A DNA stretch of 63,766 bases, the filler included, from Craspedostauros australis (lineage: Eukaryota), in assembly GCA_030167865.1 (NCBI GenBank). It is 7 parts of 7 records of this genome, joined end to end, with 100 filler letters (N's around TTAATTAATTAA, not from the genome) between each part and the next. Parts side by side here need not be neighbours in the genome. Positions count along the whole stretch, not along the records: positions 24,558 to 48,086 come from JALAGF010002477.1; 6 more parts are not named here. The stretch is one strand, 5' to 3'. Position numbers and translations under genes: made by a program. Below are positions 2,240 through 60,878 of the stretch, piece after piece (within the stretch, counting starts at the first letter, position 1; every line of letters begins with the position of its first letter). The notes below the pieces were generated by a model. The model had not been told where the DNA came from, did not search any database, and saw only the letters and a list, made by a program, of their open reading frames with translations.

Positions 2240-3259
2240 ACCGGCACGGATGCAACGTCCTCATTCATTTGCACTTGTCGGCGACTCCCACTCTTGAAAA
2301 CAACAAGAAAGCCGAAGGCAGTCATCAACTTCCAGACCGCAAGAAACGACCATTCAGCCAAACGAATCTGAAGGTGTCAACAACAAAGCTGATACAGCAT
2401 CAGTGTGCTCAGTGAATGCAACCAACTGCAAAATCATGTCTTACACACACAAAGTAGGCGACCAATAAAACTTAGAGAAGAATCCATGTTACATCCACCA
2501 AACCAAATGAGCCAATCAACAAGTCAATCAATCAATCATAACCCCCCTGTGTCAACTCAATTGCGATCCTGCCGACCCAACAGCAACAACGACAAACAGC
2601 TGGAATGACTCGCGTCACAAGCCAAAGTAACGGTAAACGGGACACCGATGCTCTCACCAACTCCGTGAAAATCGTCGTGTTCCACGTCATTCGATGGAAA
2701 AGTGAGCGAGATGCGCCGAATTTGAATCTTGTGAAGCCAGCAATCCGATCTCCAATACGCATAGACGGACGGACATGTCCCACATGGCAAGTCGTGCATC
2801 ATGTGCCGACCAGCCAAGAAACAAGAAGCCCGAACGTTCCGATCCGCGTACAACGGGCTTCTGGTTGAGACAGAGAGGGTGCATGTGTCTCACTCCGACT
2901 TCGTGGGTGATTCAGATCCGCCACAACAGAGAGCACCTCTCCATCACCGAACGAGCATTCGGCAAAGTGGGCGGAGTGTTTGGACTTGGCGCCATACAAT
3001 TGTGTTCTCCGAATCTTTCTTTCGCCAAAAGAGAGAGTGAGAGAGAGACAAAGCAAGAAGGAAAGAAACAAAGACGGCGAGAGAGGCATCCATTTGAATT
3101 GGACGAGGAGGTATCGCAACGAATTCGATCGTGCAAGAAACAATGCCACACTGTACTAATACTCCAGAAAGATAGAGAATTGGGAGAGAACAACTCCGGG
3201 ATCCAAGAGGCACCATACGTGCCACACGCGCCATACGTGCCATACGAACTCAGAGAATA

Positions 3260-9003: not shown

Positions 9004-10648
9004 TAACAACGAGTATATAGTAGTAGAGAGCAATCATCATGAGGTCTCCCACTCTTTTTCCTCCTCGTCCACACGTTTGTCCATCATGGGATTTGAATGA
9101 TCGTCTTGTGGCTGTGTTCCTTCGATACAAAGAGTGTGCTCCATCACAAAGCCTAGCCACAACAGCATGTCGCCATTCATCCTTCTCTCTTCTGTGCCTG
9201 CAACGCACAACTGCCCTTTCGTCGAACGTTGCCAAAAGATTACCATGTGGAATCTTCACAACAGCATAGCCGTGGCATACAGCAGGTCGGAGTGGAGCGG
9301 AGCGGAGCAGGGCCGCCATGGGCGGTCTTTGAGCGATTACTGCGACAGCGCGGGAGAGTCAGTAAACACAATCCATGCTGGTCTCATCTCATCTCATCTC
9401 ATCTCGTCCCATTCCTGATCCTTGGTCCATTTTGGTGCCAAGGAAGAACAAGGAGCAACGGCAACAAGGGGCAAACGTAAACTCCGGGACATGCGCACGC
9501 CTCTCCCCCTCTCCTCTTTGTCCTCGCTCCAAAGGCACGTTGGGAATTCCCACCCACCTCCTTCTGCTTTGACACCACGACCACATCGGCCGAACTCGTT
9601 CCGACACCCAAAAATGGTCACCACCTGGCTCGGTGTTTTTGGCACTCCCGAGTCCCATCAACGGCTATGCAAAATATTTGATCGACTAAATTACTTGGAC
9701 GCGAAAAACGGCTACCGATCCCCACCGAGCCTAAGTAAACCAAGTCCTGCTCACATTTTTGGGCCGACAATTCGGCGACCGCATCATTAACGGGTCAGAA
9801 TGTGGCATAAATTTTCGGCGTGCTGCACGCAAGACAGAAGAGGAACATGCACAGGCACACACCGGATACTTTTCCTTCTCATGTGCGGACGTCGTTCTTG
9901 TCGTTGTTATCGTTGCGGTGGTTGTCTCACCCACCCAGTTTGTTCGTTCGTTCGCTCGCTCGTTCTTTCCTTCTTCGTTGGTGGATTTGCTTTTTTCTTT
10001 CGTCCATCGTGATCGTCTCGTGTTACCCATCGCCGCGATTGTCCGTTCTTTCTGGCTTGTTCTCTCTGTCCTTTCTTCTTTCCTCTTTAGTTTTTGGTCA
10101 GCTGTGTGGATGCATGGCCATGGCATGTGGCGGATTGTGGTGCCCTCGTTCTCTCTTGTGATTGCGCTATGCACCACCGCCACTATTTGCAGGGTGCAGG
10201 AGATCTCTCATCATTGAGTATGGCAGGGTGGAGTGGAGGAGTGAAGTGGAACTGCGATACAAGAACCATTTTCTTACAATCACCACCACCATTATCATAT
10301 GTAATCGTTGCCGTTATCGTTACATACGCAAGAGTTACGGTGGTGCGCTCCCACCATCATCACTCCGACGACCGTCTTATCATCACAATTCTATCCGTTT
10401 GTTGCTTCAATCATTCCAACAATCGCAAAAGTGCCAGACTCCACGCATCGGACGCTGAGGTGCAACAACTGGGAAACAACATTCACACAATCACATCACC
10501 ATCGACATCACCCGTAACATCGTCAACATCGTCAACATCGTTAACATCATCCACACATCACCATCACGGATAGAGTATAGCACATACAAGTACGACGCAA
10601 GCAACCCACCTCTCCACCAAACGCCATCAATTGCCATCAATTGCCAAC

Positions 10649-12754
10649 ATGCCGTCGTTAGTTGACAACATCAAGGAGACGACGCCCACAGGCGCATCGC
10701 AACTGGCTGCCACAAAGGCCGCTTCTGACACAGAACGACCACAGAAGAGAGCCAAGACGGATCGTGATGCAGTGGCCGCCATGATGGCCGATCCATTGAG
10801 CGCACTGGCCAGTGCCGCCATTGCCGCCGAGGCCTCCGAGAATTCAACCAGCGATGCCTCCAAGGACGATGAGAGGCTCACGAGACCCACCAAGCCATCA
10901 TCCACCAAGGCACCAGCCAAGCGAAAAGCCAAAGCTGGCGAAACGCAAGTTCCTGCCGATGATGGCGACAAGGAACGCAAGCCAGAATACTTGGCAGCAA
11001 CTGTCGCTGCAGGAGGAAAGCCGCCTGCGGTCGGCACGCCCGAAACAGCTTTCACCAAGGCCGTCCCCTCCTCCATCTCCTACAGACGGCCGACGTCGCC
11101 TCCTGCTCCCAAGAGGACCATCTACTCACCAGGCTACCACCACCCATCCCCAAGCTACAGACCTCCTGCCGCGGCCGGTGCTGGGCCACCGTATCACTAC
11201 TACTCCGACCACCCACCTCCCAGAAGCCCGTACTCCTGGAGAACCTACCCACCGCATGACTACGGCCACTACCCTCCGATGTACTGGAAGCAGCCAGCGT
11301 CCACCAGTGCGAGAGGAGGTCCGCAGTACCACAGCGCCACGCAGTACCCACCCCCCGAGGCGCCTTCACCCTACAGATCGTACGCGCCGCATCCGCATGC
11401 CCAGCACATGCCACCACCGCACTTCGCGCAAATGCACGAGGCGACCCCGCCAAGGTCCGAAACCTCCGACTCCCCCACAACGCCCATCGAAGACATCAAG
11501 AGCGACCATGCCAAGGAATCCACACCGCGCCTCGTCGCGGTCTCGCCGGAAGGCCGAACCGCAAGCCCCAAGAAGCGCTTGGCCTGCAACATGTCCAACA
11601 GCAGCACGGAAACGCCGGAGTTGGCCGATCACGACAACGCCGTGGGCTCCAGCAAGGCGACGGCCAAAAGCACCGCAAGCAAGGCCAGTCCCAGCAACGG
11701 CAGGACGACGGGCAAGCGACGTGCCTCGATGGGGAAATGGACCGAAGAGGAGGACGACGTTCTCAGGAAGGCGGTGGCCGACTTCAAGGGAAGGAGCTGG
11801 AAGAAGATCGCCGCAAGGTTAAATGGACGCACGGACGTCCAGTGCCTGCATCGATGGCAGAAGGTCCTGCGACCGGGTCTCGTCAAGGGCCCGTGGACGT
11901 CAGAGGAGGATGCCAAGGTCAAGCACCTCGTCGAGGTCTACGGCAACAAGAAATGGAGCCTCATCGCGCGCCAGCTCAAGGGACGCCTCGGCAAGCAGTG
12001 TCGCGAACGATGGTACAACCACCTCAACCCCGACATCAACAAGGGCGAATGGACGGAGCAGGAGGACATCACCTTGATGAGCGCGCACAAGGAGCTCGGC
12101 AATCGATGGGCGGAGATCGCCAAGCGGTTACCCGGCCGCACCGACAACGCCATCAAGAACAGATGGAACTCCACGCTGAAGCGCGTTCTCATCAAGGGCT
12201 TCGATGCCGTCAAGAGACGCAGGACGACCGCGCGCACGCCATCGACCGGCTCGCCGGCGTCCACATCGTCCACATCGTCGCCTGCATCCACCCCAAACCG
12301 CAAGTTCAAGTTACATTCGCGCAGCATGTCGATGGCGGCCGAAGCTCTCAGCGATCTCGCCAGTCCGCACCGCCGTCCGACCAAGAGCGACGGTGGTCAA
12401 GAGAAGCGAAGTAAGTAAGTTTTCACCATCGCATACTGCATGTACATGATGTCAAAGTATCTGTCGTACTTCTGGCGTCTTCACAACAGTGCCATCCACG
12501 TCATCGACAATCCATCAACGCGCCAACTCATCATCTCAATGCAACCAACTCCAACTCTACTCACTCTCCACCCACAAACAGATCGAAGTGAGAACGTCAC
12601 TGCTCACGGTGTTCACACCACAACAGCACAGCATCCACAGCACATACAGCCACCCATCAATCTGATTCTACAACGATGCATCGCATCTCCAAAGCGCACC
12701 AATGATACCGCCAATCATTTGCTCAATCTTTCGTCACAGATTTCATTCATCTAA
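10649..12754 (+). CDS. R1R2R3 (3R) MYB transcription factor; exons 10649-12410 and probably 12582-12754
   Basis: Three MYB repeats: KWTEEED...[24 protein letters not shown]...[17 protein letters not shown]...[13 protein letters not shown] phase-1 donor GTAAGT at 12411 and the CAG acceptor ending at 12581 join in frame to a short last exon (the second exon is inferred). Confidence 0.9.
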
Positions 12755-33414: not shown

Positions 33415-34467
33415 AGTACTTGTATGGTACCACACATACGGAACCACACAACCACACACTACTTGTACCATGCCAGGACATAACCACGGAAAACTAGGAA
33501 CTTCATATAATATATGTTAGGATAATGACGACAATGGCGTGCCGTTCTTCCTCTAATCGCATTGAACCTCGTGGAGTAGTTGCATAGCGCTCTCGCGAAA
33601 TCGTCGAATATCTTTGGTGTCTGAACTGTTGTTCAATTCCTTCATGTCGCTGTGCGCATCGGCGATGGCCGTCGCAACTGTTGTTGTTGGCAACATCCGT
33701 ATCTTGACCGTGGAAGAACTGCAATTGTCTTCCACGCTGTTCGGCGTTTGTGCCTTCTCCACGACCGGCCGTGGAATCGTAATGACATGGGCGTCCCCAA
33801 AAGATGATGGCCTCATTCATTGTCGGAGCCGTCGATCCAAAAGTTCTCACCGGTCTTCGCGAGGGACACCTCATGGGTTCGCCATCTCAGCCTCTTTCCT
33901 CCAAACGCATGATGGCGATGACGCAGCGGCAGGGATCTGACGTTTCCATTCCACACATGTGATCTGTGTTTGTATTCAGCACACATAATATTATAGAATA
34001 GAATATAATAGAATCATTCTTGGACAACATCGCGCACGGTGCATCAGTGCAAGATGATACTCAGTTCCACATCCATAATCGCAGAGCGTTTGGTAGAATA
34101 TTTGTAAACAACTAACTTTACGACCTGTCCAACAACGACGACGATCATCTTGACATCGATGACGGCAGCGACATTATTTGTCGTGATGGCGACGACACCG
34201 ATCGATCCATTCCCTGGATGGAAATATTGGGACGTTGCCATTCGAACACATTCATCACATCCCCATCTTTCCCCACCCCCTCTCGTCCGTGCTGCTCACA
34301 CATACAAACCGCACCTACATTTACGTATTGGTACACATGCCCAAGTCGACGACCTTGTGCAGTCGGACCCACGCCCAATGTGTGTGTAGTACCCATACGA
34401 TACCATCTCATACTCATGCTACGGAGAGTATGTGCACATACTTTGTGCACATCCATACGCGCCCGGC

Positions 34468-37400
34468 TCAAAGGGAAGATGGGAACCGGCGTTCCACATC
34501 GTAGGGATCGATCATGGCGTGGAGGTGACGCAATGCGCAATCGCCCAGGACGGCCTTGTCGAGCGCATTCTGACCATGAGCGGCCGACGATGATTGGGTC
34601 TGTGGCGTCCGTCCATATCCACCTTCCAGCACAGAGACGACGCGGCCTTGACAGCAAATGTCGGCGATCTCCAAGATCTTGCGCGTCGTCCAGGCATAGT
34701 CCTCTGGTTCCAGATCCATGCCGCGCCGTTCTCGGTTCACCTCGTGCTTCGCATTGCCGACGTCATCGCGGCTCGCATCGAAGCCCGCGCTGATAAGGAT
34801 CAGGTCAGGGTTGAATGCTCTCAACGCCGGCAGCAGACGACTTTGGATTGCATTGCGGTAGGCCACTCTGCCGCTGTTCGGGCCGTTGCCTCCGTTGCCA
34901 CTAACGCCTGGTGGCACAGGCGAGGTCGTCGCGGAACGTAGCGAAGTCGCTTCGTTCGGGATGCTCTCAACGTCGCTGGCTCTCGGTGTTCCTGCATCCG
35001 ATGACACGTCGCCGTCGGTCTTATCATCGACGGTGCGCTTGCGAGTCTTCTGTCTCGTGTTGTGAGATGATCGTGTGGCCGGCGTCGTTGCCGTTGCTGG
35101 TTCCTTCCACATCGGCATGATGGGGACATTGATGATGTTCATTGCCACGTCGTCCTCGTCTCCCGTGCCCGGATAGAACTTGTACTGAAATGACTTGGTT
35201 TCGCGCTTCCCCTTGCGATCGTTGTCGTACAGGTGGATGGAGAAGAAGAACAATTTGGATGGATCGTGACATTTGCGAACAATTTCCTCCGTACCGTTGC
35301 CGTGGTGGATGTCGATGTCCACGATGGCGCAGCGTTCGCAAAGCAGCCGTTCGTCGGAGATAGCGTGCATTGCGCCTGCTGCGACGTTGTTAAAGATGCA
35401 AAATCCACATGATTCGCCGCCATCCAACAACCCGTTCACACCGGCATGGTGACCCGGAGGCCGGACGATGCAAAAGGCGTTTCGATTCCTGCCGACGAGG
35501 ACCCGATCAACGGCATGCTGGACTGCACCGGCTGCCCGACGAGCCGCGTTCAAAGATCCCGCACTGAAGGAAGTGTCGGAGTGTTGTCCCAGCTTGACTC
35601 GCGACTCGGAGATTCTCGACATCGATTTCTGGACCATGGGAGTGAACGGGACGACTGGCGGGGTGATGGACCCGCTACCTCCGGCGCTGTCTTCGTCGCT
35701 GCCGTTCTCGCGTTGCTGCAAAAGCTGTTGCTGGGAGTGCAGCTGTTTCTTCGCTTGACTCTCGAGGTCAGCGCTCAGCCGATTCACGAACTTCAAGTAC
35801 TCCGTGCTGTGCACGCGATTCAAAAGATCGACCTTTGCCTTTTCGAATTCCTGCGAGATGTTGAGTTCGTGTGGGAGGATTCCGATCGGAAGTCCGTCCC
35901 TGTCGGTGCCGCATTTCAAGATCCTGTCCAGGATCGTCGTGACTCGTGCTGGGCATTCCCAATCCGACAATGCTTTCGGGATGTGCTCCAGGCATTCCGG
36001 ATGATGCAAAACGAGCGTCCTGGAGTTCGTGGATGCGTTGAAGTGCGTTGCGCGTGCAAACCTCCTGTCCACGGATGCCTGCTTCAGCACTGCCCGTTGC
36101 TCCTTCGTCAATCGTTTCCTCTTTTGGGCCAACAACTTCAATTCCATAACATTCATCGTGGGCCGTGAAGGGCCACCGGTCGATGAGGAGGAAGACGATG
36201 CTACAACGCCTTCGTCGTCAAAGCCATCAGCGGCGATGTCGATGGGCCGTCGGAAGCTTTTGTTAAGAACGGTTGGACGAGCGCCATTCTCCAACAGCAC
36301 CTGCACCACCTTCGAACTCCGGCGACCAGCACGCATGGCCCAATGCAACGGCGTCTCACCATTGTTATTCTTGGCATCTGCACGATGGTACGAGTGGGCG
36401 GCATGGCGATTGGAAAGTGCCAAATGATCAATTCCATCACCAAAAGGAGACAGAACACGGATGGGAGTGAGTGAGAGATGAAGTGAGATGAGATGAAACG
36501 TGGGCGTGTGTCATGCACAACTTTATTCGTTTTGGTTTCGGTCTCGGTCTTGCAATCGTTCGAACAATGTGTTTGGCCTGCGTCCTTCCTCGTACATGAG
36601 TCATAGCATTTGTTTGATACATACATGCGCGTTCGATCAAGCTGGGAGTTCGAAGTGTGGCAGTAACACACCATGATAGCAACGCAGCCAACGCAACCTG
36701 ACGTGACACAACACGACGTACCTCTTGGTCCGCTTTGGAGCAGGAGCACCGCAGCATGTGGATCACCCGCACGGCAAGCCCAATGCAATGGAGTGTTGCC
36801 GTGCTTATCCCTCGTCGAGGAATCAGCGCCAGCTGAAAGCAGGATGCGACAAATATCCGAAGGCCCAGTGGATACCCGGTTACCGCCGGGTTGCTTCAAA
36901 TTCAATGCCGCGGCCGAGTGCAATGGAACGTAACCAGCTTCGTCCTTGCGTTCCAGATGGTCGCTGTTCAGAGATAAGCCAATTTGGATGGCAGCGGAAT
37001 CCATTTCGCACACGGCCTTGTGGATGCGAGAACGTCCCAAGGTCGTGGAAAGTCCGACGACTGGATGCAGAATAGGAGCCTCCGATTCTGCGGGTGGTGA
37101 TGATTCTTCGAGGTCGAGTTGTCCCGCTCCTGTTGCACCACCCCCCACAGACGGCATCTTTGGCAATCCCACGGCCATGCCATTCTCTTCATCTGAATTC
37201 TTGTCTCCCTTGTGTTTCTTCTCCTCACTGCTAACACAAGACCAATCAAAAGCAAAGGAACAAAAGTGCAGGTAGAGTTCATAAACGTAAGTGAGGCGTA
37301 TCCAACATTGAATGAAATCAATTTGCAGCAATCCAAGCCAACAATGCAAGAAAGCATATGCGGTAAGTGGTGAGCCTTTCGCAAACATTGACACACAAAA

Positions 37401-39664
37401 GAAGCAATCCACCCCAGCAGTAATGGCAGCAGCACATCTCCAAGATGCCCCACCATCACACGAATTTAACACAACACATGAAAAGCAGGCAAGCAAGCAA
37501 ACAATACAACGTACTCGATAAGCGCTTGCAGCTGTCCTTCCCACGGCGTGACGGGAGAATCACCTCCGCTCTTCGATCTGCCGGTGTTGTACGTGACGCC
37601 CAAACTCTCTGGATTAACGATTTGCAACGAGAGTGCTGGGGCTGACTTCACGGGTGTTGCCGATACTGGTTGCGATGATGATGCAACTTGACGGCCCGAG
37701 GTATCATCGGGCTGCGTCACTGCGCGTGGTGGAGTGACGTTGGTGGACGCAGCCGAGGATGATCTCGGAGCGGCAACTTGATTTGCGCCAGCGGATGAGT
37801 CGGGTTTGATGACTGCCGGTGCTGCAGACGAGGTGGATATTGGTGGTGGTGTCGCCGCGCCTGCATCGGCAGACTTCAGGATATTGGCAGCACGTTGCGA
37901 TATGCTGGACGAGTGTGCCATCGCTGTCTTGTGCGCTCCGGCGCGCTCCTCCCTGGTTCTGGCCAACGAGAAGAACCCTCCGTTGCCGGATGACGTGGAA
38001 GATGCTACTCCGGCCAACAACTTCGCTGCAGCAATCTCCGCAATTTTTCGCTTGCCGCAAGCAGCAGGGGAAGGCTCCGGGAATGGATTGCGTCGCAAGG
38101 ACGAGGTGGCATCAGGTGCGACGATTGAGATGCCAAAGTTGGGTGTGCGGTGCTGGCCCGCTGTTGATGGCGGGTATGTCTTGCTGGCATCTGCAGCAGG
38201 CGCCGTCGAGAATGCCGAAGCTTGCGTCGACAGTTGGAATGTCGTCCCTGCACCGACAGCTGGTGCAGCGGGCGCAGGGCCGGCGGACGATGGCTTGACC
38301 TTGCTACTTGTGGATCCGGCCAAATTCGAAATGAGCTGTGCCGCAGATGTGACGCTGGACTGTCGATGCGGACTCAAGTGGCTTCGAGAAGGCACGACGA
38401 CAGGAATGCCAAGCGAATTGGCCGTGGTGAGGCCCGTCAGGACCTTCGGTGGGTTCTTCGCGATGCTAACTGGCGTATACTTCGAGATGGGAACAGCAGG
38501 TTCTGCGGATCCGGGCGATTTCTTTTGCGACGAACCGCCGCTTTTCTTCATGCGCTTGTTGGGTGACGCGATGGAGAGTCCGCCGTTGTCGTTGGGCTGT
38601 CCCAGCCCCGCTGGCACCGCCGTCCCCATCTGAACGGACGCAACCTCTTCGCCGGATTGCTTTGCCTTTTGCAGCTTTTGGAAGTACTTCTGCGCGTGAG
38701 TGCGCGTTTGGACGACGGTGCGCGTTTTCACCTTCGCTGCGACCTTCTTCCATTCCTTCCCGTACATGTTGAGGGCCATGAGGAACTTATTGTGCTCCTC
38801 CTGCGTCCAGCGTCCAGTCTGCTCATGTCCAGTCTCCACCACCTTGCCGGGAGTGTTGGGATCGAACTTCGGATTGGATGCGTGGTACGGCCTGCCGCTG
38901 GAGTTGGTGCCTCCAGTGGTCGACGCCGAGATGGAGACAGTGAGACCGCCGCCGCCACCACCACCGCCGCCCTCCTCGTCGCCTCCCTGATGCTTCGATG
39001 CATGCGGTAGGCGCTTGCGGTTGTGTCTGCGTTTCTGTTTGCTGATTGCCGGTGCCATGCTGGTGGTGGTTGCTGGTTCGTTGCGGGTTGTGACATCTGT
39101 CATGCGAAGGTCCTGGTCTTGATCGTACACATGCTGCGCGATGTAGGAACGCACTGGGTCATTCTCTATGGAATGCCTTGCACCAGTCAACCTGGCGTCT
39201 GCCGCATTGCTGTCGTGGCTATTTGCGGGTGGCAACGCGCCTCCTTTGCCGTTGGTGAGGTCGAGGAATTGCGTGTGCTTTGGTCGCTGCGCGCCGGATG
39301 AAGGCGCTCTTGACACTGGTGCTCCGGCAGCTGATAACGCCGGTGACGTGATGGTGCCAATGGGTACCAACGTTACAATTGCCGTTGGTCCCGGAGCCGC
39401 CGATGTTGGTTCGGTGTCCATTGCTGGTGGAGTTGGTGCTGAATTTGTTCCCACGGTGTCCGTATCATCGGTGCTGTTGCCATCATCCTTCCCCGCCTCG
39501 GCTTTGCTGACGGATCTATTGTTCACGTGGAAGTAGTCGGTCGATCCTGCGGGTGCGTTGGTGTTCTGCGCATCGGCCGTTGCACCCATCCTGGCGGCAG
39601 CCGCAGCTGCGTCAAGGCTTGTGAATGCAGTGATGCTTGCATGTTCTCCGTGTGATTCGCTCAT
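34468..39664 (-). CDS. MYB(THAQKYF)-ankyrin-histone deacetylase multidomain protein; exons 39664-37515, 37230-36722, 36377-34468 (about 1522 aa)
   Basis: MYB GRWTQEEH...RTHAQKYF; ankyrin GYVPLHSAA, GNTPLHWAC, GETPLHWAM; HDAC RPPGHHAG, GFCIFNNVA, DIDIHHGNGT, SAGFD, LEGGY. Both GTACGT...AG introns preserve the frame (4569 nt in total). Confidence is high for each domain and moderate for the MYB-to-ankyrin junction. Confidence 0.78.
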
Positions 39665-42600
39665 TGTTTCGGAAGTGTGCGAGTGCGAAGAGAGTCAATT
39701 GTTCTGGCTGGCTGCTCCTGGTGATGTCGATGATAGAGGCAATGACGACGATAACGACGGCGGTGCGGTTCCCCTTGAAGGTTGGATCTGGAGGCGTGAA
39801 TGGAATGCGCGTGGACCAAAATAGTAGAGTGTAGTGTTAGTGCACCTGTGTTGCGGATGAATGGTTGTGAACGAGGGGGAGAATGGAATGGAATAGAATA
39901 GAGTGGAGTCAATAGGAATACAAACAGGGTGTGCACGTGTGCGTGATGAGAAGAGAGTGTGAGCAGAACGGCGATTTGTAGATGTTGCACATGAGCACCA
40001 TTCCTGAAACTTCGCATTGAATGAATCTTCGCAGGCACATAGTAGGCGTTGCACAAGGATGGAACATGGTGGTGCTGCGTGCAATCGAATGCCATGACGT
40101 TGGCAGAGTTCGAATCGAAGTGTGACTGAGGGCGACTTTGTCGGGGCAGGCATTGGTGGGTTGCTTGTCGTCATCCTCGACAAGCGTGGGTTGCTCGTGA
40201 CGGTCATTGAATTAATGGACGACACGACTTTGGAAGCCCTTTCGAAGGTCTTTGGAAGGAGCACATCTCCATTCCCTGATCGAGGTCATCATGATGGCAA
40301 CGGCCGCATTAGTGCAGTGGTCTGCGCAATTATGCACCTGCTCTGTGGTGTGGTATGGTATCATCGCGTCCAGTTGGAAACGCGCCAATGGAACCGCTTG
40401 CATGTGCGCAACTGCGCCATTTTGGCGCCATCTGCATCTCGGTGTTTGACCTTTGGATGGCAGAGCGTTGCTTTCTCTCTTCCACTGCTGCTAAAGGTTG
40501 CAACAGCAGGTAGATGATGAATCGATGATTGTCTTTGCGTTGGTGTTGCGGCTTCTGACACTGTTGCCAGTGCCAGTGCCGGTATCCATGCCATGATGCT
40601 TCCTTGCCTTTGGGTGTTCGCCCCTCCCGTTGCCATCTTCGCAGTCTTCTTCTCGCCATCCACGATCACAAAAACACCATCACCCGCGAACTCACAATCG
40701 ATGCTGGTGCTCGAATCTTGACAATGTGCGTCCTTGCCAATGACGTGCAGACTGCTGTCGACCGATGCTGTTGACTGTCAAGCGATGATGGCAATGACAC
40801 TCACGATGGCAGCGACGATGACAATGTCGGTAATCTTTCTGGTATGGCGCGTCGTGAAGCTGAGATGTTTCTGTTTGGTTGGTGTGATGTGAAGGTGGCG
40901 ATGTCTTGTTGCGGTTGCAGTTGGTGTTGCAGTTCTTGCTGTTTGTTGATGGCGAAGGCATCGCCGCTGCAACAACCAGGTGCGCGGAAGAAGTTGGCTC
41001 TGCCGGCAAAACAAGGGCTCTTTCGCGCCGTCTCCAGAGTATCTTTCGAAGAGACACGACAGAAGACACCGAGCCGGCGTGGCATGTGCTTCGCGACAGC
41101 CTTCTGCTTTTTGTCATTGATTCGCAATGTGTATGCTTCCATTGGTCCGTTGTGTGTCGCTGCGACAAATGGAGTGTTCAGAGGACTGTCGCATTGCCGT
41201 TCCATGCCGTGTTTGATGTTCGTCTGGATGAAGTTTCTGAGCCGTATTCGTCTGTCCGTGTATACGTTTTTCTCCGTGCATCTCGCCAAGATGCGAAAGA
41301 TACAGAGCGAAAGATACCAAGATTCTTCCTCTGGTCGTGAGATGGAATGCACCACTCAACGCACACAAGTGGTTGTGGTGGCGAAAACGCAACCACACCA
41401 CAAGGAGACAAAGGGAGAGGGAGAGACCTTTTTTCTGTTGCCGATGTTGTCTGTGACTTCATTCGTTGTTCTGTTCGTGGCGTGTTCATCATGTGGCTGC
41501 TCCTTTCTTTGTTCGGTTTCTGATTCCCCCTTGGTGCGCGTTCGTTTTCTGTTCTTTGCTCAACCGTCCTTGCTTGTTGTGTGTGGGCGGGGTGCGCCAA
41601 GTCACCGCACGGTTCTTCTTGTCTCATCTTGGTCCGTCTCCAACGGTACCTGGGTTGCGCACCATCGTCGCCACCAGCATCGATATCACCCATGCCTGCA
41701 CCTCCCACCACGCGCCGCTCAACTGTTGCCCGCTGCTGCGGTGCAAGAATGGCATGTTCACACCTCCTCGGATGGTGTCGAATCGATTGGAGTACCACCT
41801 CAAACACATTCTCCCTTACCTTTTCTTTCTGCCTCTCTTGGGTGATGGATATTTGATGCGGAAGGAAGATCCGGATCCAAGAGGCGTATCTTTCCTGGCG
41901 ACCTTCGGCTTTTGTTGATGATGCCTTTGATTTTGACGTGTGTGCTTGTTCGGGATGTGATCTTGTTTGCCTTCGTGTGCTTGTGTGAATGGGCTTGGAT
42001 TTGTTTTCGTCTTCACATGCGCACCGTTGCGTGCTGTGTCTGTCTGCGTGGGTACGATGTGATGTGTGTGCGAGGATGCGAACGCGCGCACGTGATCTCG
42101 CGTTGGTTCGGTGATGATCTCGTGTCAGCGGTCTTGGTTCGGGTTTCTGTGGGGAAGTTGTCCAATTGAAATTCTTCGAATTCTGCACGACCGCTTTCGT
42201 CGTGTCACATTCACATCACGGAAAAAGGTGTCAACTGTGAAGCAGTCATGGGAGTCGATCAATCAAACTCATGACTTGTGAGTCACGATACATACTTCAG
42301 CGATGCCAACACCACGATTGATATTTGTTAAGCCCAAAGGTGCCGTCGCGTGTCCCATGTAACCTGTTGGGAATGATGGAGATCATGAATGCCAACAACG
42401 ACGAGCACGGCCCCGCGCAACTCCGAAAACACAAATCGTCGGGCATCGCTGCTTGGTTGACTTGACATTTGTTTGGAAATGCGTTGCGCTTTTGCCGTTA
42501 TCGCATTGGGAACTGATTCAAACGTCACAATTGCCAATCTTGTTGCGACAAATCGACACAATAAATTCGTGCTGGGCGCAAGTTGAGGGAATGACCAACA

Positions 42601-51876: not shown

Positions 51877-54256
51877 TTAGCTTCTACGCTTTTTGGAGCG
51901 CTTCATTGAGCCGCCGGTGTCGGTGTACTCGTTCTCGATATCCTTTCTCTCCTTGCGGAGCCGGTCCACCTTTTGTTTCGATGGTGTGCGTCCCAAGGCA
52001 TCCTTCTCCTTCGTGATTTCGAGCTCTTCGCGTCTCGATGAAAGCTTGTCGACCTTGGCCTTCTTCTTGGCGATGCCGTGCTGCATGCGACCATACAGAT
52101 GAGCGGCTTTGCGGCTCATCATGGACTTGGCCAAGGCGTGGGCTTCCTCTTCCTCTCTCAGACGTTTCTTCTCCGCTTTCTTCTTTGCCTTCGCCGCCTT
52201 TACCTTCTTATCCTTGGCATCGTCTTCTTCGTCTTCCTGCTGTTCGTCTTCTTCGTCGCTATCATCGCTATCATCATCAGCGTCTGGTTCATCGATGGTT
52301 TCGGCCGGTTCGGCAGCGATGCTGTCGTCATCGCTGACCATGGTCTCGATGCTTTCGCCGTTCTTGAGCTTCTCGATTTCTTCGGCGTAGGCTGGTTTGT
52401 AGCCCTCCTCTTCGTTATCCACCCACGGTGACAGATGCGGTGGCAACGTCGCACCGACGGAGTATCGTGCGATGGGAAGGAGGAACATGAAGTTGCTGCT
52501 GTCCAAGATCCATTGCGGTTGCACGAATTCTCTGGACTTCGGGAGCTTCGCGTAAGAGGATGGCAGTTTGGGTCGGTCCACGATGTGATGCGTGATGGAA
52601 GAATCGTTGACCGAGATGGGGCTGTTGGGGCCCTCCCAGCCCACGCTGGCGCCGTAGGCCAGCGACACGAGCTCTATGTAACCCTTGGGGATTTCACGAG
52701 AAAGGAAGAATGTCAGACCATTGAACAACCCCCTTCGTTTGAGCGCATCGTCGTCCAAGTTCGCCCCACCAGACGATGGCATGGCGGTGCGAGCCTCCTG
52801 CTCAGACAAATTCTCCAACGCAGCCTTCAATGGGCCGGCCACGTCAACGTCGTCATCGCCATCATCATCCTCGTCGTCACTCTCACGTGGCAGATCATTC
52901 AAGGCGTCTCCCACGGATTTGAGCAGCTCCTTTTTCTTCTTCTTTTCGCTCTTTGATGCCTTCTTCTTGCTGCCGTTGCCGTCGTCTTGCGTGTCTTTGT
53001 CTGCGCCGACCGACTCATCGACGATGGCTGCCACGGCACTGGATGATGGATTTAGCGCATCCTTCAATGACTTGAGGTTGGCAGAAAGGATGGAGCTCGT
53101 GCTACCCCTCACTTCAGTGCCAGCTGTAACCGCCGGGAGGGGATAGCGGACCCCCAAATCACTGTACAGCTTGAAGAGTACGAAGTTCAGCAGCGTCTCG
53201 TAGAACTCGAAGAATGTGGACATGACGCGGTAGTCAACATCGGTCGGCATGAACTGGGTGAAGGAGTGTGGAATGACCCATCGCACCGGCACGCCCTTGA
53301 TGGTCGCCTCCATGTACACTCCCTTGACGGAGATGAAGGACTTCGTGATGCAGCCGGAGGTTGCGCAGTACGCACCCCAGGCTGACGCCAAGGACTTCGC
53401 GCCGTTGGACGTCTTTGCCTTGATGTTGTGCTCGCTTGGCAATGCCGCAAAAAGATACGTCAATGTCAACGCATCGTCGAGATCGGCCAAGGCATCGACG
53501 AAGCGAGGGTATCGCTCGCGCACCAGGTGATGCACCGTGTACGATGGACAGATGGCATTCTTTCGCACGGCTTCGTCTTTTTCGTTTCTGCCGGCGGCTC
53601 TGCGGATCTGCCGCGGTCGGTGTTGTGCAAGTTGAGATTTGGTGCAAAGTACGCACAAGTACGAGTTGAAGACAATCATGAACGGAAGAACATGTCAGTG
53701 TGCATTCTGGTTGGTGAGATCCGCTCCAACTTCCACAAATCACATTTTGCAATTTCCGAATGTGCAAACGAAATGCACCGCAAGTCAACATGCATACTCT
53801 TCAGAGCAGGCCCATTGTGGAACATCATTCGCAACAAGTGATGCGGTGCATGCGGCACGACCACGAGACGTGCAGAGGACCGTGCCCTCTCAGACGGCAA
53901 CGCACCTTCTTCAAGAATGCGCGGAATTCACGAAACTTCTCCAGGAGCGGTTCATGCGCCAGCGCCTTGATGTCCTTGATGTGGTAGAATGTCTGGCCTT
54001 TCTTGTTGCCTGGCATGCGCCCACGAGGCTCACGTGGGTAGATGCCCTTGAGGATGCACAGACGACGAAAGTCCTTGATCGTGATCTGGAGCATCTTGAG
54101 GGATCGCGAACGTCCTATGAAGGTCGCCTCCAGACCGGAATTGTCCCTCTTCTGCTTCTTTCCCATCCTTGACAGCTTGCGCGTCGATCCCATCTTGGAA
54201 TGCGAGGCTGCCTTGATGGACTTCTTCTTCACGCGTCCCTTCACACGGTTACCCAT
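51877..54256 (-). CDS. PES1: Pescadillo homolog (Nop7), 60S biogenesis; exons 54256-53906 and 53607-51877
   Basis: DFRRLCILKGIYPREP, HLVRERYPRFVDALADLDDAL, DVDYRVMSTFFEFYETLLNFV, BRCT region ITHHIVDRP...QPQWILDS, LPPHLSPWV. The intron 53608-53905 is in frame. Confidence 0.96.
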
Positions 54257-57641: not shown

Positions 57642-59405
57642 CTACTCATCATCGTCAATCGGCTGATCCGTCTTGACCCACCCATTGGATTGGAATTCGA
57701 ATTTGAGGCGCTGCAGCTCTTCCTTCTTGTAGTTCTCGAAGTGTTTCAGATCGAATCCATACTGTGCGCAGAACGTCGCATCCGTGGCGGAGGCCAGAGC
57801 GCTCAATGTGGGCTGGATGTTGCCCTGTGATTGTGCATAATGCCATCGTGGGAGCATACGGTTGTGCAATGAGGCTGTCAGATTACGTCCGCTGATGGCA
57901 CCACTTGTCATGTATCCCATGCGGTGCAGGAATTCCACCTTGGGACGCAGGTTGCGCTCCACACTCGATGACAGGATGATTGGTGACGTGCGCAGCATGG
58001 AGATCGCGGTGGGCTGACCCCATGTGCTGCACAGGAACTCCACAGTTGGTTGGATGTTGTCTGTCAGGCTCATGGTATAGACCGTGCTGGCCTTGCGCAA
58101 GACGAGCGCTGCCAACGAGGCGGGCCGGTCCTGGCTATAGGCGTCGTTCCCAATGGCATCAAAGTATGCGATCTTCGCTTCCAGGTTGCACAACGAGAGC
58201 TGCAAGAAGTAGGGCCATCGCAACACCGATTTCTTGAGCTGCTGTGGTGTCAGCATGGTGAAGAGCAGATCCAATTTGGGTTGCAGGTTGTCTTCCATGG
58301 AGAGGTTGAGATTTATGGCACCATGTCGCAAGAGCAGCGTTGTTGTCTCGGTGCGATTGAGCTGCAGATTATCCACCAGGTACTCCACACGCTGTTGCAG
58401 GTTGCCTTCTGTGTCCATCCAGTTCCTTTGCAACACCGTCTTCAAGATGGTATTGATGACTTCGTTCGTGGATTTGCGTTGCTGACGAAGGACCTCCTCA
58501 TCAAGCACAGATCGCAGGTACGTCACAGCAGCATCGATCTTGGCATGGGTTTTGGCTGATGTGGCGATGTCACCTTCCATCTGGGTGCTGTTTGCAGGAT
58601 GTGACGACTGGTCAGATTCCTCCTCCCAATAATGCTGCAGTTCTTCAGCCACCCTTGCGCCACGGCGCTTGGCGACGCGGGCAAGCAGCAGCTTGGGGTT
58701 GCGCTCGATGGCCTGCTGCAGCCTTTTGTGTCCCCATAGGTTGGTAAGGAAGTCGTGGGTGGGCTTCAGCACGACAGCGACGTCCTTGCGCAGGATACGC
58801 GGTTCCGTCTGAATGACCTTCTGCGCCACATGCGGAGGACAGACAGAGGACACAAAGTCGAGAACGTCCTGCACTTGTTGCGGCGACACCCGATCGGCAA
58901 CGCCGTACAGGTACTTTTGCGACTTGACCCATTCCTTTGGGGTGGGTGGATTGCGCGATGCACCTTCGTTCTGCAGACACTCGCGGACAAGGGAGCGTCT
59001 GTCGTCGTCTCGTATTTGGTCGAAGTGCGAGTAGATGACACTCATGTGGTGCCTCGCCTTGATAGTTGCGATGGATGGTGCCAATGGTGCCAGTGCATCT
59101 GTCTTGGCATCCATCTTGGCGTCCTTCTTGGCATCTGATGGAGCTGACTGGGATGTATCGGTGTTTGATGCCAGCAATCTGGACCATCCATTCCGTGTCG
59201 GCGTGTTCACACATGTTGGTGTTGGTGGCAGATGAGAGTCTGTGTGTCGGTAGATGTTCGAGTATGGATCAATGTTTGACAGCCCCCAGCGATATCGATC
59301 ATGACCATGCTGGTGGCGGTTGCTTGCAAAGGCGGCTGTGGTTGCTGCTTGTGTCAGAGCAGCGACGCCCACTGAGAAGACAAGGGCATGCCTCCCAAGC
59401 ATCAT
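57642..59405 (-). CDS. mTERF-family protein, probably plastid-targeted (start uncertain; ATGs at 59507, 59483 and 59405)
   Basis: Repeats PRIL...LKPTHDFL, NLQPKLDLL, LSLCNLEAKIAYF, SLTDNIQPTVEFL, SSVERNLRPKVEFL; leader MMLGRHALVFSVGVAALTQAATTAAF. Confidence 0.85.
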   Translation of the reverse strand: MMLGRHALVFSVGVAALTQAATTAAFASNRHQHGHDRYRWGLSNIDPYSNIYRHTDSHLPPTPTCVNTPTRNGWSRLLASNTDTSQSAPSDAKKDAKMDAKTDALAPLAPSIATIKARHHMSVIYSHFDQIRDDDRRSLVRECLQNEGASRNPPTPKEWVKSQKYLYGVADRVSPQQVQDVLDFVSSVCPPHVAQKVIQTEPRILRKDVAVVLKPTHDFLTNLWGHKRLQQAIERNPKLLLARVAKRRGARVAEELQHYWEEESDQSSHPANSTQMEGDIATSAKTHAKIDAAVTYLRSVLDEEVLRQQRKSTNEVINTILKTVLQRNWMDTEGNLQQRVEYLVDNLQLNRTETTTLLLRHGAINLNLSMEDNLQPKLDLLFTMLTPQQLKKSVLRWPYFLQLSLCNLEAKIAYFDAIGNDAYSQDRPASLAALVLRKASTVYTMSLTDNIQPTVEFLCSTWGQPTAISMLRTSPIILSSSVERNLRPKVEFLHRMGYMTSGAISGRNLTASLHNRMLPRWHYAQSQGNIQPTLSALASATDATFCAQYGFDLKHFENYKKEELQRLKFEFQSNGWVKTDQPIDDDE

Positions 59406-60056
59406 GCTCTTCAGTTTCGGACGGCGGCTGTTTCGATCCTGTTTCCTTCTCTTCTTCGATGCATCATCCGTGCTTGTGCTCATGACCGCGCAAGTACTCG
59501 TATTCATGATCGTTGTCCGTATCTGTGCGAGAATCATTGAGAGTGATAGGAGCACACCATGTACAATACCATCGATGCATGGGGCAATGGAGTATTATAG
59601 TGGTGGGTGGAAAGATGTGAGTGTGAGCATGTACATGATTTGATGTGCTTGCCCATCCACAACCTCGCCGACACGCGCGAGACGAAGAAGTTCGTGTGGT
59701 ATGTTCTTTTGGAAACACAGAACTCGAATTCATGGAAGATTTGTTTGCCGAGCGTATTTGTCAAAGCACTTGTCAGCGTTTTCGGTGCTTTGTCAGCGAA
59801 CACAGACAAACACAGGCACACACAGAGAGAGAAAGAGAAGACCCACCCGAACAAGACAACAACACACACCACCCAACCCCATACTCGATCACGTCAACAA
59901 CAGACATCGAATTGCCACTCATCACAAAGCGTATGGTACTCATACGAATACAAGCCATTGAAGACACCACCATCGGTAGCTCATACCACGCACTTGCTCG
60001 ACAGCCAATCCATCGCCAATCGTCCAACGTCAATCGTCCAGCAACCATCCCTCAAA

Positions 60057-60878
60057 ATGCCGAATGTTACACACAGACAGCTCCTTGGTGCTGCCACAGC
60101 AGGTGACTTGTCAGTGTTGAAGGAATGGAAGAAGCATAGCAAGACGCAGAATGAAGGAGTTGATGTCAACAAGGTTACAGACAAAAATGGTCAGACTCCC
60201 CTTTATTGGGCATGCCGTAACGGCCAGCTGGAGTGTGCCAAGCACCTCATGGAATCATGTGAGGCGAACATCAACTGTCAAAACAACCATGGTGACACTC
60301 CCCTTCATGTGGCATGCATGCACGGCCACCTGGAGTGTGTGAAGCACCTCATCGAATCGCATGGGGCGAACGTCAACTTCCAAAACAAACATGGTTCCAC
60401 TCCCCTTCATTGGGCATGCCACAACGGCCACCTGGAGTGTGTGCAGTACCTCATCAAATCATGTCGGGCGAACATCAACTGCGAAACCAACGATGGTTCC
60501 ACTTCCCTTCATTGGGCATGCATGGACGACAAGCTGGAGTGTGCCAAGTACCTCATCGAATCATGTGGGGTGAACATCAACTGCAAAGACAACGCTGGAT
60601 CCACTCCCCTTCATTGGGCATGCATCGATGGCAAGCTAGAGTGTATCGATTACCTAATTCAATCATGTGGGGTGAACATCAACTGCAAAGACAATGATGG
60701 CTCCACTCCCCTTCATGTGGCATGCTGCAACAGCCAGCTGGAGTGTGTCAAGTACCTCATCGAATCAGCCAATGCGGATATCAACATCCGAAACAATGAC
60801 AACGAAACACCCCTCAATTTGCTTGATGATTTGATTGATGCAGAGCATAATAATAGAACCCAAACAATATGGCTGTAG
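60057..60878 (+). CDS. Ankyrin-repeat protein (six 34-aa repeats), possibly truncated at the C-terminus
   Basis: TPLH(W/V)AC..G.LEC..YLI.SC..NINC repeats starting at 60195, 60297, 60399, 60501, 60603, 60705 and a partial repeat at 60807. Confidence 0.9.
   Translation: MPNVTHRQLLGAATAGDLSVLKEWKKHSKTQNEGVDVNKVTDKNGQTPLYWACRNGQLECAKHLMESCEANINCQNNHGDTPLHVACMHGHLECVKHLIESHGANVNFQNKHGSTPLHWACHNGHLECVQYLIKSCRANINCETNDGSTSLHWACMDDKLECAKYLIESCGVNINCKDNAGSTPLHWACIDGKLECIDYLIQSCGVNINCKDNDGSTPLHVACCNSQLECVKYLIESANADINIRNNDNETPLNLLDDLIDAEHNNRTQTIWL

What the first reader, a model, noticed from the sequence alone, without database searches (positions are those of the whole stretch)
34468..39664. A sequence-specific MYB factor fused through ankyrin repeats to an intact histone deacetylase
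Seen: three ORFs listed separately splice together. The MYB ORF has a phase-2 donor (ATC GA|GTACGT, 37514) where its sequence turns intron-like, and this fits the acceptor at 37231 in frame. A second intron (36721-36378) completes an ankyrin repeat (SGPR|DAKNNNGETPLHWA). The product has a THAQKYF MYB domain (about 38670-38815), about 4 ankyrin repeats and an HDAC with all catalytic motifs present (GHH, DIHHGNG, GFD, GGY). Known: SHAQKYF MYBs (CCA1/LHY/REVEILLE class) bind DNA sequence-specifically and normally recruit HDACs in trans; ankyrin-HDAC fusions occur in some protists. Inference: a self-targeting repressor that both reads DNA and deacetylates chromatin, possibly diel or clock related, and likely to be split in automated annotations. 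I cannot tell whether this architecture has already been described.
Basis: partly seen in the sequence, partly recalled or inferred. Interest (0 to 1): 0.85.

Follow-up and report, generated by a model that had tools for sequence, protein, structure and literature searches.

The report
Myb-ankyrin-histone deacetylase fusion gene
The three reading frames are one spliced diatom gene for a histone deacetylase that carries its own Myb DNA-binding domain, an architecture shared by many stramenopile algae in public databases but apparently never studied.

Summary
On the minus strand, 39664-37515, 37230-36722 and 36377-34468 join through two GTACGT...AG introns into one 1522-aa frame. It encodes a THAQKYF Myb domain, about four ankyrin repeats and a class II deacetylase domain with every catalytic motif.

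The fusion is supported by relatives, not by RNA of this organism.
- 72 of 120 long relatives of the deacetylase exon carry Myb, ankyrin and deacetylase domains. Nine of these are transcriptome ORFs.
- The spliced protein aligns co-linearly with 18 of them across both junctions.
- 86 of 153 relatives with the motif that ends exon 1 stop exactly there, with read-through tails typical of the same phase-2 intron. 67 continue past the junction (62 into recognisable ankyrin repeats).

So the intron is conserved, and Myb-only models are annotation artefacts.

The family spans diatoms, Triparma, chrysophytes, Ectocarpus and Blastocystis. Ten literature searches found no description of it. DNA-targeted deacetylation is inferred. 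A clock role has no support.

Verdict: a real but already catalogued architecture, moderately interesting.

The parts
37515..39664 (-). Exon 1 (ATG at 39664; 716 codons plus 2 nt). It is mostly low-complexity, and holds the Myb domain and three short conserved motifs.
   Evidence: ORF. Sequence. Pfam. Conservation profile.
38681..38815 (-). Single-repeat Myb domain of the SHAQKYF class, with helix 3 reading THAQKYF.
   Evidence: PF00249 scores 46.9 bits against a cut-off of 24.4. The best solved match is 6nvz, 'Myb family DNA-binding protein shaqkyf family', E 1.5e-13. T-H-A-Q-K and F are invariant, and Y at least 90%, in 63 of 63 aligned relatives. The domain has pI 10.46.
39239..39277 (-). 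Conserved N-terminal motif (HTQFLDLTNG-type), aa 130-142.
   Evidence: Seen in the alignment of the window protein with 18 relatives. It is conserved mainly in pennate diatoms.
38006..38083 (-). Conserved linker motif (FPEPSPAA...KRK...LAGV), aa 528-553.
   Evidence: Alignment. In the AlphaFold2 model of relative P0008 it forms a helix (residues 279-294, pLDDT about 76) inside an otherwise disordered linker.
37517..37633 (-). Conserved motif that ends exon 1 (LQIVNPE ... TPWEGQLQAL), aa 678-716.
   Evidence: Alignment. Found in 153 of 349 fetched relatives.
37231..37514 (-). Intron 1: phase 2, GTACGT...TTAG, 284 nt, GC 0.43.
   Evidence: Relatives show the same position and phase. 84 truncated models read on as 'R', and 25 of those as 'RYV', which is what AG|GTA.. 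or AG|GTACGT gives when read through.
36722..37230 (-). Exon 2: a variable acidic stretch followed by the first ankyrin repeats. It includes a non-conserved in-frame ATG at 37178-37176.
36378..36721 (-). Intron 2: phase 1, GTACGT...GCAG, 344 nt, GC 0.49. It lies inside an ankyrin repeat.
   Evidence: Junction alignment.
34468..36377 (-). Exon 3: the last ankyrin repeats, a helical linker, the deacetylase domain, and a TGA stop at 34468-34470.
36217..37034 (-). Ankyrin-repeat region (about 4 repeats, aa about 783-940), interrupted by intron 2.
   Evidence: Ankyrin Pfam models match in exons 2 and 3. The corresponding helical repeat region of relative P0008 (about residues 428-578) has pLDDT above 90.
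34492..36030 (-). Class II (HDA1/HDAC6-like) zinc deacetylase domain, aa 1003-1515.
   Evidence: PF00850 E 7.1e-61. HDAC6 structures match at E 1.8e-52. The envelope was defined with an HMM built here. The catalytic His-His, Asp-x-His, Asp and Tyr are all present.
34861..35124 (-). Low-complexity insertion inside the deacetylase domain (aa about 1305-1392).
   Evidence: Pfam and HDAC6 alignments break into two stretches here. Conservation is low. The equivalent segment is disordered in the model of P0008, residues 922-969.
34089..34467 (-). Probable 3' untranslated region.
   Evidence: The single identical contig of run X1 covers 34089-35408 on the minus strand. The run's status as RNA is only a guess by the tool, so this is weak.

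Best explanation
Shown from sequence:
- 39664-34468 (minus strand) is one three-exon nuclear gene of a diatom. Its closest relatives are Nitzschia, Pseudo-nitzschia and Cylindrotheca.
- It encodes a 1522-aa protein laid out as beads on a string. A basic single-repeat Myb domain (THAQKYF) comes first. A long disordered linker with three short conserved motifs follows. A compact module of about four ankyrin repeats plus a class II zinc deacetylase, with all catalytic residues, comes last.
- It is the orthologue of a Myb-ankyrin-deacetylase family. That family is conserved, with the same intron position, across diatoms and found in other stramenopiles.

Inferred:
- The Myb domain binds a specific DNA motif and so brings the covalently attached deacetylase to chosen loci. 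There the enzyme removes acetyl groups from histone tails and represses transcription.
- This would replace the usual recruitment of a deacetylase by a separate DNA-binding protein.
- The ankyrin repeats and linker motifs probably hold partners or regulate the enzyme.
For: Gene structure.
- Splice sites, phases and the single 1522-codon frame are in the sequence.
- GC drops in the introns.

Architecture in relatives.
- 72 of 120 listed long relatives of exon 3 carry PF00249, ankyrin models and PF00850.
- Nine of them are MMETSP transcriptome ORFs: P0005, P0008, P0010, P0017, P0018, P0032, P0036, P0038 and P0075.
- 12 of 120 in the near-length list carry all three as well.
- The order Myb, ankyrin, deacetylase was confirmed by hmmscan in 8 of 10 relatives scanned. 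The other two were Hondaea P0076, which has ankyrin-deacetylase-PAH and no Myb, and P0088, which is cut off within the deacetylase domain.

Junctions.
- The alignment is co-linear across both, and the end of exon 1 (TPWEGQLQAL-) runs directly into the EEKK stretch that starts exon 2.
- The intron is conserved. Of 153 motif-bearing proteins among 349 fetched, 86 stop at the junction. 84 of these begin their tail with R, 53 are R plus stop, and 25 read RYV. 67 continue for 400 residues or more; in 62 of them an ankyrin motif was recognised.

Enzyme.
- PF00850 at E 7.1e-61.
- HDAC6 matches with aligned catalytic motifs.
- Catalytic columns are invariant in 63 of 63 relatives, apart from the second His, which is at least 90%.
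- The fold of relative P0008 matches class II-type deacetylases: 5ji5 TM 0.91 and HDA15 0.79-0.80.

Myb.
- Best solved match is the SHAQKYF-family Myb 6nvz.
- pI 10.46, with 13 K/R against 3 D/E.
- pLDDT about 95 in the model of P0008.
Against: - No RNA read of this organism crosses either junction. The only run found gave one contig, at 34089-35408. The splice is therefore inferred from relatives.
- One transcriptome ORF marked complete lacks both the Myb domain and the linker motif (P0129, 901 aa). An ankyrin-deacetylase-only product may therefore exist in some species.
- DNA binding, the DNA motif, deacetylase activity, the substrate and nuclear location are all untested.
- The closest solved enzymes (HDAC6) act largely on non-histone substrates. 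That statement is from recall.
- The deacetylase domain carries an insertion of about 90 aa whose effect is unknown.
Confidence: 0.8

Rival explanations
1. Two neighbouring genes. A stand-alone Myb factor ends at the stop at 37466-37468. A separate ankyrin-deacetylase starts at the ATG at 37178. The splice fit is coincidence.
For: Many database proteins are Myb-only (about 400-650 aa) or ankyrin-deacetylase-only. In-frame ATGs exist in exon 2. No junction read is available from this organism.
Against: The Myb-only proteins end exactly at the donor, with read-through tails: 86 of 153. Several of the 'deacetylase-only' ones begin inside the exon-1 motif (P0122, P0124, P0125, P0126). Nine transcriptome ORFs are fused. 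The exon-2 ATG sits in a region that is not conserved in the 18 aligned relatives. The 16 residues after the donor have no counterpart in relatives.
Confidence: 0.04
2. Both forms exist. The fused transcript is made, and an internal promoter or a retained intron also yields an ankyrin-deacetylase product without the Myb domain. Targeting would then be switchable.
For: P0129, an MMETSP ORF marked complete (901 aa), lies inside the diatom clade of the tree. It has an unrelated N-terminus and no Myb or linker motif. The window has an in-frame ATG at 37178.
Against: P0129 may be a partial assembly or a retained intron. The internal ATG is not conserved. There are no transcript-start data for any species.
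Confidence: 0.2
3. The Myb-like domain is not a sequence-specific DNA reader. It works like a SANT domain, binding histone tails or activating the deacetylase, as in co-repressor subunits.
For: Weaker matches of the domain include SANT domains of REST co-repressors and a SWI/SNF subunit (E 0.002-0.004). That SANT domains partner with deacetylases is established knowledge, stated here from recall.
Against: The best match by ten orders of magnitude is a SHAQKYF-family Myb named as DNA-binding. The domain is strongly basic (pI 10.46), whereas SANT domains are typically acidic (recall). The recognition-helix motif is invariant in 63 of 63 relatives. The domain is separated from the enzyme by about 380 disordered residues.
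Confidence: 0.12
4. The enzyme acts mainly on non-histone or small-molecule substrates, for example cytoplasmic proteins or polyamines, and the Myb domain has another role.
For: The nearest solved sequences are HDAC6 catalytic domains and bacterial deacetylase-like amidohydrolases.
Against: The fusion to a Myb domain, and several basic clusters that look like nuclear localisation signals, argue for a nuclear, chromatin-directed enzyme. Arabidopsis HDA15 and yeast Clr3, which are histone deacetylases, match about as well.
Confidence: 0.08

Closest known systems
Predicted Myb-ankyrin-deacetylase proteins of other diatoms and ochrophytes. Examples are Nitzschia sp. Nitz4 NITZ4_005420, Fistulifera solaris FisN_5Hh340, the Amphora coffeiformis UniRef entry named 'histone deacetylase', MMETSP ORFs of Pseudo-nitzschia, Cylindrotheca and Thalassiosira, and Triparma laevis TL16_g08191.
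   Same: They share the domain order, the invariant THAQKYF helix, the three linker motifs, the phase-2 intron position and the catalytic residues. Identity is 64% over exon 3 for the best, and 77% over the kept deacetylase columns.
   Different: The window protein is longer: 1522 aa against 1113-1391 for most aligned relatives; one (P0023) is 1533 aa. The extra length is a longer non-conserved N-terminus and linker. The junction codon gives Asp rather than the usual Ser. None of these relatives has been studied experimentally as far as my searches show.
Ankyrin-repeat class II deacetylases of oomycetes and apicomplexans. The oomycete ANK-HDACs are described in PMC5112689. The apicomplexan proteins are those named HDAC5 in Toxoplasma, Besnoitia and Cystoisospora records.
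   Same: Ankyrin repeats lie N-terminal to a class II deacetylase domain (passages of PMC5112689 read).
   Different: They have no Myb domain. In the deacetylase-domain tree they form a separate long-branch clade (SH-aLRT 100), apart from the stramenopile Myb-bearing group.
Oomycete class II deacetylases with a PHD finger, two AP2 domains and a Med27 domain (PMC5112689).
   Same: They follow the same logic: a deacetylase fused in one chain to a putative DNA-binding domain (passage read).
   Different: The DNA-binding domain is of a different family (AP2, not Myb), the passage lists no ankyrin repeats for this architecture, and the lineage differs. The relationship was not tested here beyond one PHD-bearing Aphanomyces protein, which sits on a very long branch.
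Labyrinthulomycete ankyrin-deacetylase-PAH proteins (Hondaea fermentalgiana, P0076).
   Same: The ankyrin-deacetylase core is related and groups near the Blastocystis Myb-bearing proteins, with weak support of 80.
   Different: They carry a C-terminal paired amphipathic helix (Sin3-type) domain instead of an N-terminal Myb. This suggests recruitment through partners rather than by direct DNA reading.
Plant CCA1/LHY/REVEILLE and other SHAQKYF-class single-repeat Myb factors.
   Same: They share the single Myb repeat with an (S/T)HAQKYF recognition helix.
   Different: The plant factors recruit deacetylases in trans (recall), whereas here the enzyme is in the same chain. Membership of the clock clade was not tested.

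Membership tests
Class II (HDA1/HDAC6-type) zinc-dependent deacetylases, Pfam PF00850 | Match to the family profile above its curated cut-off | tested here: met
   206.6 bits against a cut-off of 27.9, E 7.1e-61.
Class II (HDA1/HDAC6-type) zinc-dependent deacetylases, Pfam PF00850 | Catalytic set: tandem His, Asp-x-His and Asp zinc ligands, and catalytic Tyr in GGY | tested here: met
   PPGHHA, DIDIHHGNG, SAGFDA and LEGGYG align with the same motifs of zebrafish HDAC6. They are conserved in 18 of 18 aligned relatives, except that Dinobryon has GHN.
Class II (HDA1/HDAC6-type) zinc-dependent deacetylases, Pfam PF00850 | Closer to class II than to class I enzymes | tested here: met
   All 43 solved sequences at E up to 1e-20 are HDAC6, HDAC4/7, HDA15, Clr3, deacetylase-like amidohydrolases or relatives, with no class I enzyme among them. 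The fold of relative P0008 matches the same set.
Class II (HDA1/HDAC6-type) zinc-dependent deacetylases, Pfam PF00850 | Deacetylase activity on acetyl-lysine | not testable with these tools
   Needs an enzyme assay.
SHAQKYF-class single-repeat Myb DNA-binding proteins | Myb repeat profile match | tested here: met
   PF00249 scores 46.9 bits against a cut-off of 24.4.
SHAQKYF-class single-repeat Myb DNA-binding proteins | SHAQKYF motif in the third helix | tested here: met
   The variant THAQKYF is present. It is identical in all 19 aligned sequences. The best solved match is the SHAQKYF-family Myb 6nvz, E 1.5e-13.
SHAQKYF-class single-repeat Myb DNA-binding proteins | Sequence-specific DNA binding | not testable with these tools
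   Only indirect evidence: a basic domain of pI 10.46.
CCA1/LHY/REVEILLE clock clade of SHAQKYF Mybs | Phylogenetic placement within that clade, and rhythmic expression | not tested
   No plant sequences were brought in and no expression series was available.
Stramenopile Myb-ankyrin-deacetylase orthologous group (database family, unnamed) | Domain order Myb, then ankyrin repeats, then PF00850, in one chain | tested here: met
   Met in the spliced window model. The same order was found in 8 of 10 relatives scanned.
Stramenopile Myb-ankyrin-deacetylase orthologous group (database family, unnamed) | Shared linker motifs and a shared phase-2 intron after the TPW(E/D)GQLxAL motif | tested here: met
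Stramenopile Myb-ankyrin-deacetylase orthologous group (database family, unnamed) | Deacetylase domain falls inside the clade of Myb-bearing proteins | tested here: met
   A quick IQ-TREE of 45 rows places the window with Nitzschia, Pseudo-nitzschia and Cylindrotheca (support 83). This sits inside an ochrophyte clade of 26 rows, 22 of them Myb-bearing (SH-aLRT 94).
Apicomplexan/oomycete ankyrin-deacetylases (HDAC5-type) | Deacetylase domain groups with these proteins | tested here: not met
   They form a separate clade with support 100 on a long branch. The search was quick and the branches are long, so the exact relationship is unsure.

The most novel reading that the evidence does not exclude
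Proposed reading:
- The Myb-ankyrin-deacetylase is an ancient stramenopile invention. It is present from Blastocystis to diatoms.
- A sequence-specific DNA reader and the chromatin eraser sit in one polypeptide. This would give these lineages a one-component, locus-specific repressor.
- The invariant recognition helix implies that the same DNA motif has been read for hundreds of millions of years.
- The conserved linker motifs gate the enzyme.
- Labyrinthulomycetes swapped the direct reader for a Sin3-type PAH adaptor.

If this is right, one DAP-seq experiment would define a conserved repressive regulon in diatoms.
Probability: 0.3. Interest if true: 0.65.

Novelty: new member of a known kind. 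Interest (0 to 1): 0.42.

Why it matters
Deacetylases normally have no DNA specificity of their own and are brought to genes by other proteins. A family in which the enzyme is fused to a conserved Myb DNA-binding domain offers a direct handle on how diatoms and other stramenopile algae target chromatin repression. The DNA motif of one small domain would predict the enzyme's targets.

There is a practical point too. Gene callers cut this gene at a conserved intron in more than half of the database entries that carry the junction motif (86 of 153). Counts of 'Myb factors' and 'deacetylases' in diatom genomes and ocean metagenomes are therefore distorted, and the window's gene should be annotated as one 1522-aa product.

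The architecture itself is already in public databases. The value lies in recognising and testing it, not in discovering a new kind of protein.

Tried and rejected
RNA evidence from this organism.
- The look-up of sequencing runs listed one run (X1), with no RNA holder on record.
- Laying it gave a single identical contig at 34089-35408 and nothing over the junctions. That is no evidence either way on splicing or expression.

Whole genome. None is held for this window.

Earlier scan notes. Nothing by place and nothing by words.

Intramolecular docking.
- I tested whether the conserved linker motifs dock on the ankyrin-deacetylase module, using residues 262-400 against 412-1110 of relative P0008.
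- Complex prediction returned no verdict (score 0.02, mark 0.34). I draw no conclusion from it.

Literature.
- None listed a paper on a Myb-ankyrin-deacetylase protein.
- I read passages only, through 'find', in PMC8854648, PMC3145265, bioRxiv 10.1101/2021.11.30.470311, PMC5112689, PMC4827209, PMC5156380, PMC6340190 and PMC7339932. None mentions this architecture.
- Rayko et al. 2010 (New Phytologist, stramenopile transcription factors) is not held and may bear on the claim. Supplements were not opened.
- One search used Phaeodactylum gene identifiers that I built from numbers in a table of PMC3145265, plus one identifier that was a guess of mine. Its single hit was irrelevant.

Identity of the window's own protein. 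No listed protein exceeds 64% identity to exon 3. Identity to exon 1 reached 39-41% in alignments spanning most of it, and 85% only over the short Myb stretch. I therefore dropped my early idea that the window might be Phaeodactylum with a split annotation.

A supposed Myb-ankyrin paralogue without a deacetylase. P0088 proved to be a model cut off inside the deacetylase domain.

Exhaustive representative search with exon 1. It found 6308 proteins at E up to 0.001, and 81 at E up to 1e-30. It added no new architecture information because that library has no annotation.

Full report
**Observation.** Three long minus-strand open frames cover the region: 37466..39694, 36201..37559 and 34468..36510.

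- Reading the minus strand, the first frame runs from the ATG at 39664 to ...ATC GA at 37515. GTACGT follows it.
- An AG at 37232-37231 is followed by C AGT GAG GAG. The split codon therefore becomes GAC, and the frame continues as SEEKKHKGDK...
- A second GTACGT follows ...CCA AGA G at 36722, and GCAG ends at 36378. The join gives GPR-D-AKNNNGETPLHWA, which completes an ankyrin repeat.
- Joined by coordinates in a script, the three stretches give 4569 nt, that is 1522 codons and one terminal stop.
- The introns are 284 and 344 nt, with GC 0.43 and 0.49. The exons have GC 0.56-0.59.
- The exon-1 frame hits a stop 16 codons after the donor.

**Domain content.**

- hmmscan finds PF00249 (Myb) at aa 284-328 of exon 1 (window 38681-38815, E 2.9e-12).
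- Ankyrin models match at the end of exon 2 and the start of exon 3.
- PF00850 (histone deacetylase) matches exon 3 at E 7.1e-61, split into two stretches by an insertion.
- Against solved structures, exon 3 matches HDAC6 best (E 1.8e-52). All 43 matches at E up to 1e-20 are class II-type enzymes or their bacterial relatives.
- The alignment places PPGHHA, DIDIHHGNG, SAGFDA and LEGGYG on the catalytic motifs of HDAC6.
- The Myb segment matches best the Entamoeba 'Myb family DNA-binding protein shaqkyf family' (6nvz, E 1.5e-13). SANT domains of co-repressors match at E about 0.002-0.004.
- The domain is strongly basic: pI 10.46, with 13 K/R against 3 D/E.

**Is the fusion real?** No RNA of this organism could be brought to bear. 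One run was listed, and its single identical contig covers only 34089-35408. The case rests on relatives, and it is strong.

- Searching the deacetylase exon among proteins of 1113-3175 aa, 72 of the 120 listed carry Myb, ankyrin and deacetylase domains.
- Those 72 include gene models of Nitzschia, Pseudo-nitzschia, Fistulifera, Amphora, Mayamaea, Epithemia, Skeletonema and Thalassiosira.
- Nine of them are MMETSP transcriptome ORFs, that is, assembled transcripts.
- I aligned the spliced window protein with 18 hand-picked relatives out of those 120. It is co-linear throughout.
- The end of exon 1 carries a conserved motif (LQIVNPE...TPWEGQLQAL). In the relatives this motif runs straight into an EEK(K) stretch and then the ankyrin repeats, exactly as the splice predicts. 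There is no gap at junction 1 and one residue at junction 2.
- The in-frame ATG in exon 2 (37178) lies in a non-conserved stretch.

**A conserved intron, and why the databases look split.** Searching exon 1 among proteins of 393-1253 aa returned many Myb-only proteins of 400-650 aa. Their C-termini explain them.

- Of all 349 proteins fetched by then, 153 carry the exon-1 end motif.
- 86 of these stop at the junction. 84 begin the tail with R. 53 are exactly R plus stop. 25 read RYV.
- 67 continue for 400 residues or more, most often with Ser. In 62 of them my pattern recognised an ankyrin repeat.
- R-stop and R-Y-V are what AG|GTAA and AG|GTACGT give when a phase-2 donor after a Ser codon is read through. 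The window has GA|GTACGT and reads E-Y-V.
- The same intron, in the same phase, is therefore present in many relatives. Myb-only entries are products of gene callers that do not splice.
- Cylindrotheca fusiformis shows this directly. Consecutively numbered models .31 (Myb only, ending at the motif) and .30 (ankyrin-deacetylase) come from the same scaffold4829. The Cylindrotheca MMETSP transcript is fused.
- Several 'deacetylase-only' entries begin inside the exon-1 motif and so also bridge the junction.

**Distribution.**

- hmmscan confirmed the order Myb, ankyrin, deacetylase in 8 of 10 relatives scanned: Cylindrotheca, Triparma, Dinobryon, Blastocystis, Ectocarpus, a chrysophyte and two unnamed eukaryote models.
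- Hondaea instead has ankyrin-deacetylase-PAH.
- P0088 is cut off within the deacetylase domain.
- I built a quick maximum-likelihood tree of the deacetylase domain with 45 rows. These were hand-picked from the 240 proteins then held. Three rows with aberrant domain extents were dropped beforehand.
- The tree puts the window with Nitzschia, Pseudo-nitzschia and Cylindrotheca (support 83).
- That group sits inside an ochrophyte clade of 26 rows, 22 of them Myb-bearing (SH-aLRT 94). The four others are short, partial or N-terminally cut models.
- Blastocystis groups weakly (80) with labyrinthulomycete forms.
- Apicomplexan and oomycete ankyrin-deacetylases form a separate long-branch clade.
- In an alignment of 63 of the 72 full-architecture relatives, the recognition-helix residues T-H-A-Q-K and F are invariant and Y is at least 90%. 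So are the catalytic columns, apart from the second His, which is at least 90%.

**Shape of the protein.** AlphaFold2 was run on relative P0008 with that alignment. The joined window protein cannot be handed to the tool.

- The Myb domain is a confident three-helix bundle (pLDDT about 95).
- The linker is disordered, with two short helices at the conserved motifs (pLDDT about 76 and about 50).
- The ankyrin-deacetylase module is confident (mostly above 90).
- The insertion is disordered.
- Foldseek matches the model to class II-type deacetylases: 5ji5 TM 0.91, Arabidopsis HDA15 0.79-0.80, and HDAC6 domains 0.72-0.79.
- A test of whether the linker motifs dock on the catalytic module gave no verdict.

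**Mechanism.**

- Shown: one gene, the architecture, intact catalytic and recognition motifs, and deep conservation.
- Inferred: the basic Myb domain reads a DNA motif and tethers the deacetylase in cis to chosen loci, where it deacetylates histones and represses. The ankyrin repeats and linker motifs probably serve partner binding or regulation.
- Rivals:
  - an extra Myb-less isoform, since one transcriptome ORF, P0129, lacks the Myb part;
  - a SANT-like role for the Myb domain rather than DNA reading;
  - non-histone substrates.
- The clock suggestion has no support beyond the motif class.

**What is known.**

- Ankyrin-deacetylases and a PHD-AP2-deacetylase-Med27 architecture are described for oomycetes (PMC5112689, passages read).
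- None of my ten searches, and none of the passages I read, mentions a Myb-ankyrin-deacetylase protein.
- One likely source, Rayko et al. 2010, is not held.
- The architecture is nevertheless plentiful in public databases under automatic names.

**Verdict.** The gene is a new member of a catalogued but unstudied family. It is a correct and useful re-annotation, and a moderately interesting lead rather than a new kind of system.

Noticed in passing
window 10574-12415 (+): A long open frame encodes a three-repeat (3R-type) Myb protein: PF00249 in three stretches, E 5e-52. It is unrelated to the single-repeat Myb of the finding.
   Followed up: no
window 59601-60875 (+): An open frame made almost wholly of ankyrin repeats (PF00023, six stretches, E 2.7e-64). 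It is a separate gene about 20 kb from the finding.
   Followed up: no
window 3176-4624 (+), 51880-53694 (-), 57645-59594 (-): Ordinary nuclear genes surround the locus: a Cupin_8 (JmjC-like) frame, a Pescadillo N-terminus frame and an mTERF frame. The window therefore looks like normal eukaryotic chromosome.
   Followed up: no
relatives P0074, P0076, P0077 and P0079 (Hondaea and unnamed): The labyrinthulomycete relatives of the ankyrin-deacetylase core have no Myb domain and carry a PAH (Sin3-type) domain, which hmmscan places C-terminal in the one scanned (P0076). The targeting module looks to have been swapped.
   Followed up: partly
relative P0071 (unnamed eukaryote model, 1434 aa): This Myb-ankyrin-deacetylase relative has weak extra matches to PHD (E 3.9e-4) and SAP (E 4.3e-4) domains after the deacetylase domain.
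   Followed up: no
relative P0129 (MMETSP ORF, 901 aa): A transcriptome ORF marked complete sits inside the diatom clade. It has an unrelated N-terminus and no Myb or linker motif. It could be a Myb-less isoform or a retained-intron assembly.
   Followed up: partly
window 34861-35124 (-): A serine/threonine/proline-rich insertion of about 90 aa lies inside the deacetylase domain. It is poorly conserved in sequence but present in relatives, and disordered in the model of P0008. Its function is unknown.
   Followed up: partly
window 37782-38633 (+) and 35413-36168 (+): Long antisense open frames (283 and 251 aa) lie opposite exons 1 and 3. They are most likely shadows of GC-rich coding sequence and were not examined.
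   Followed up: no
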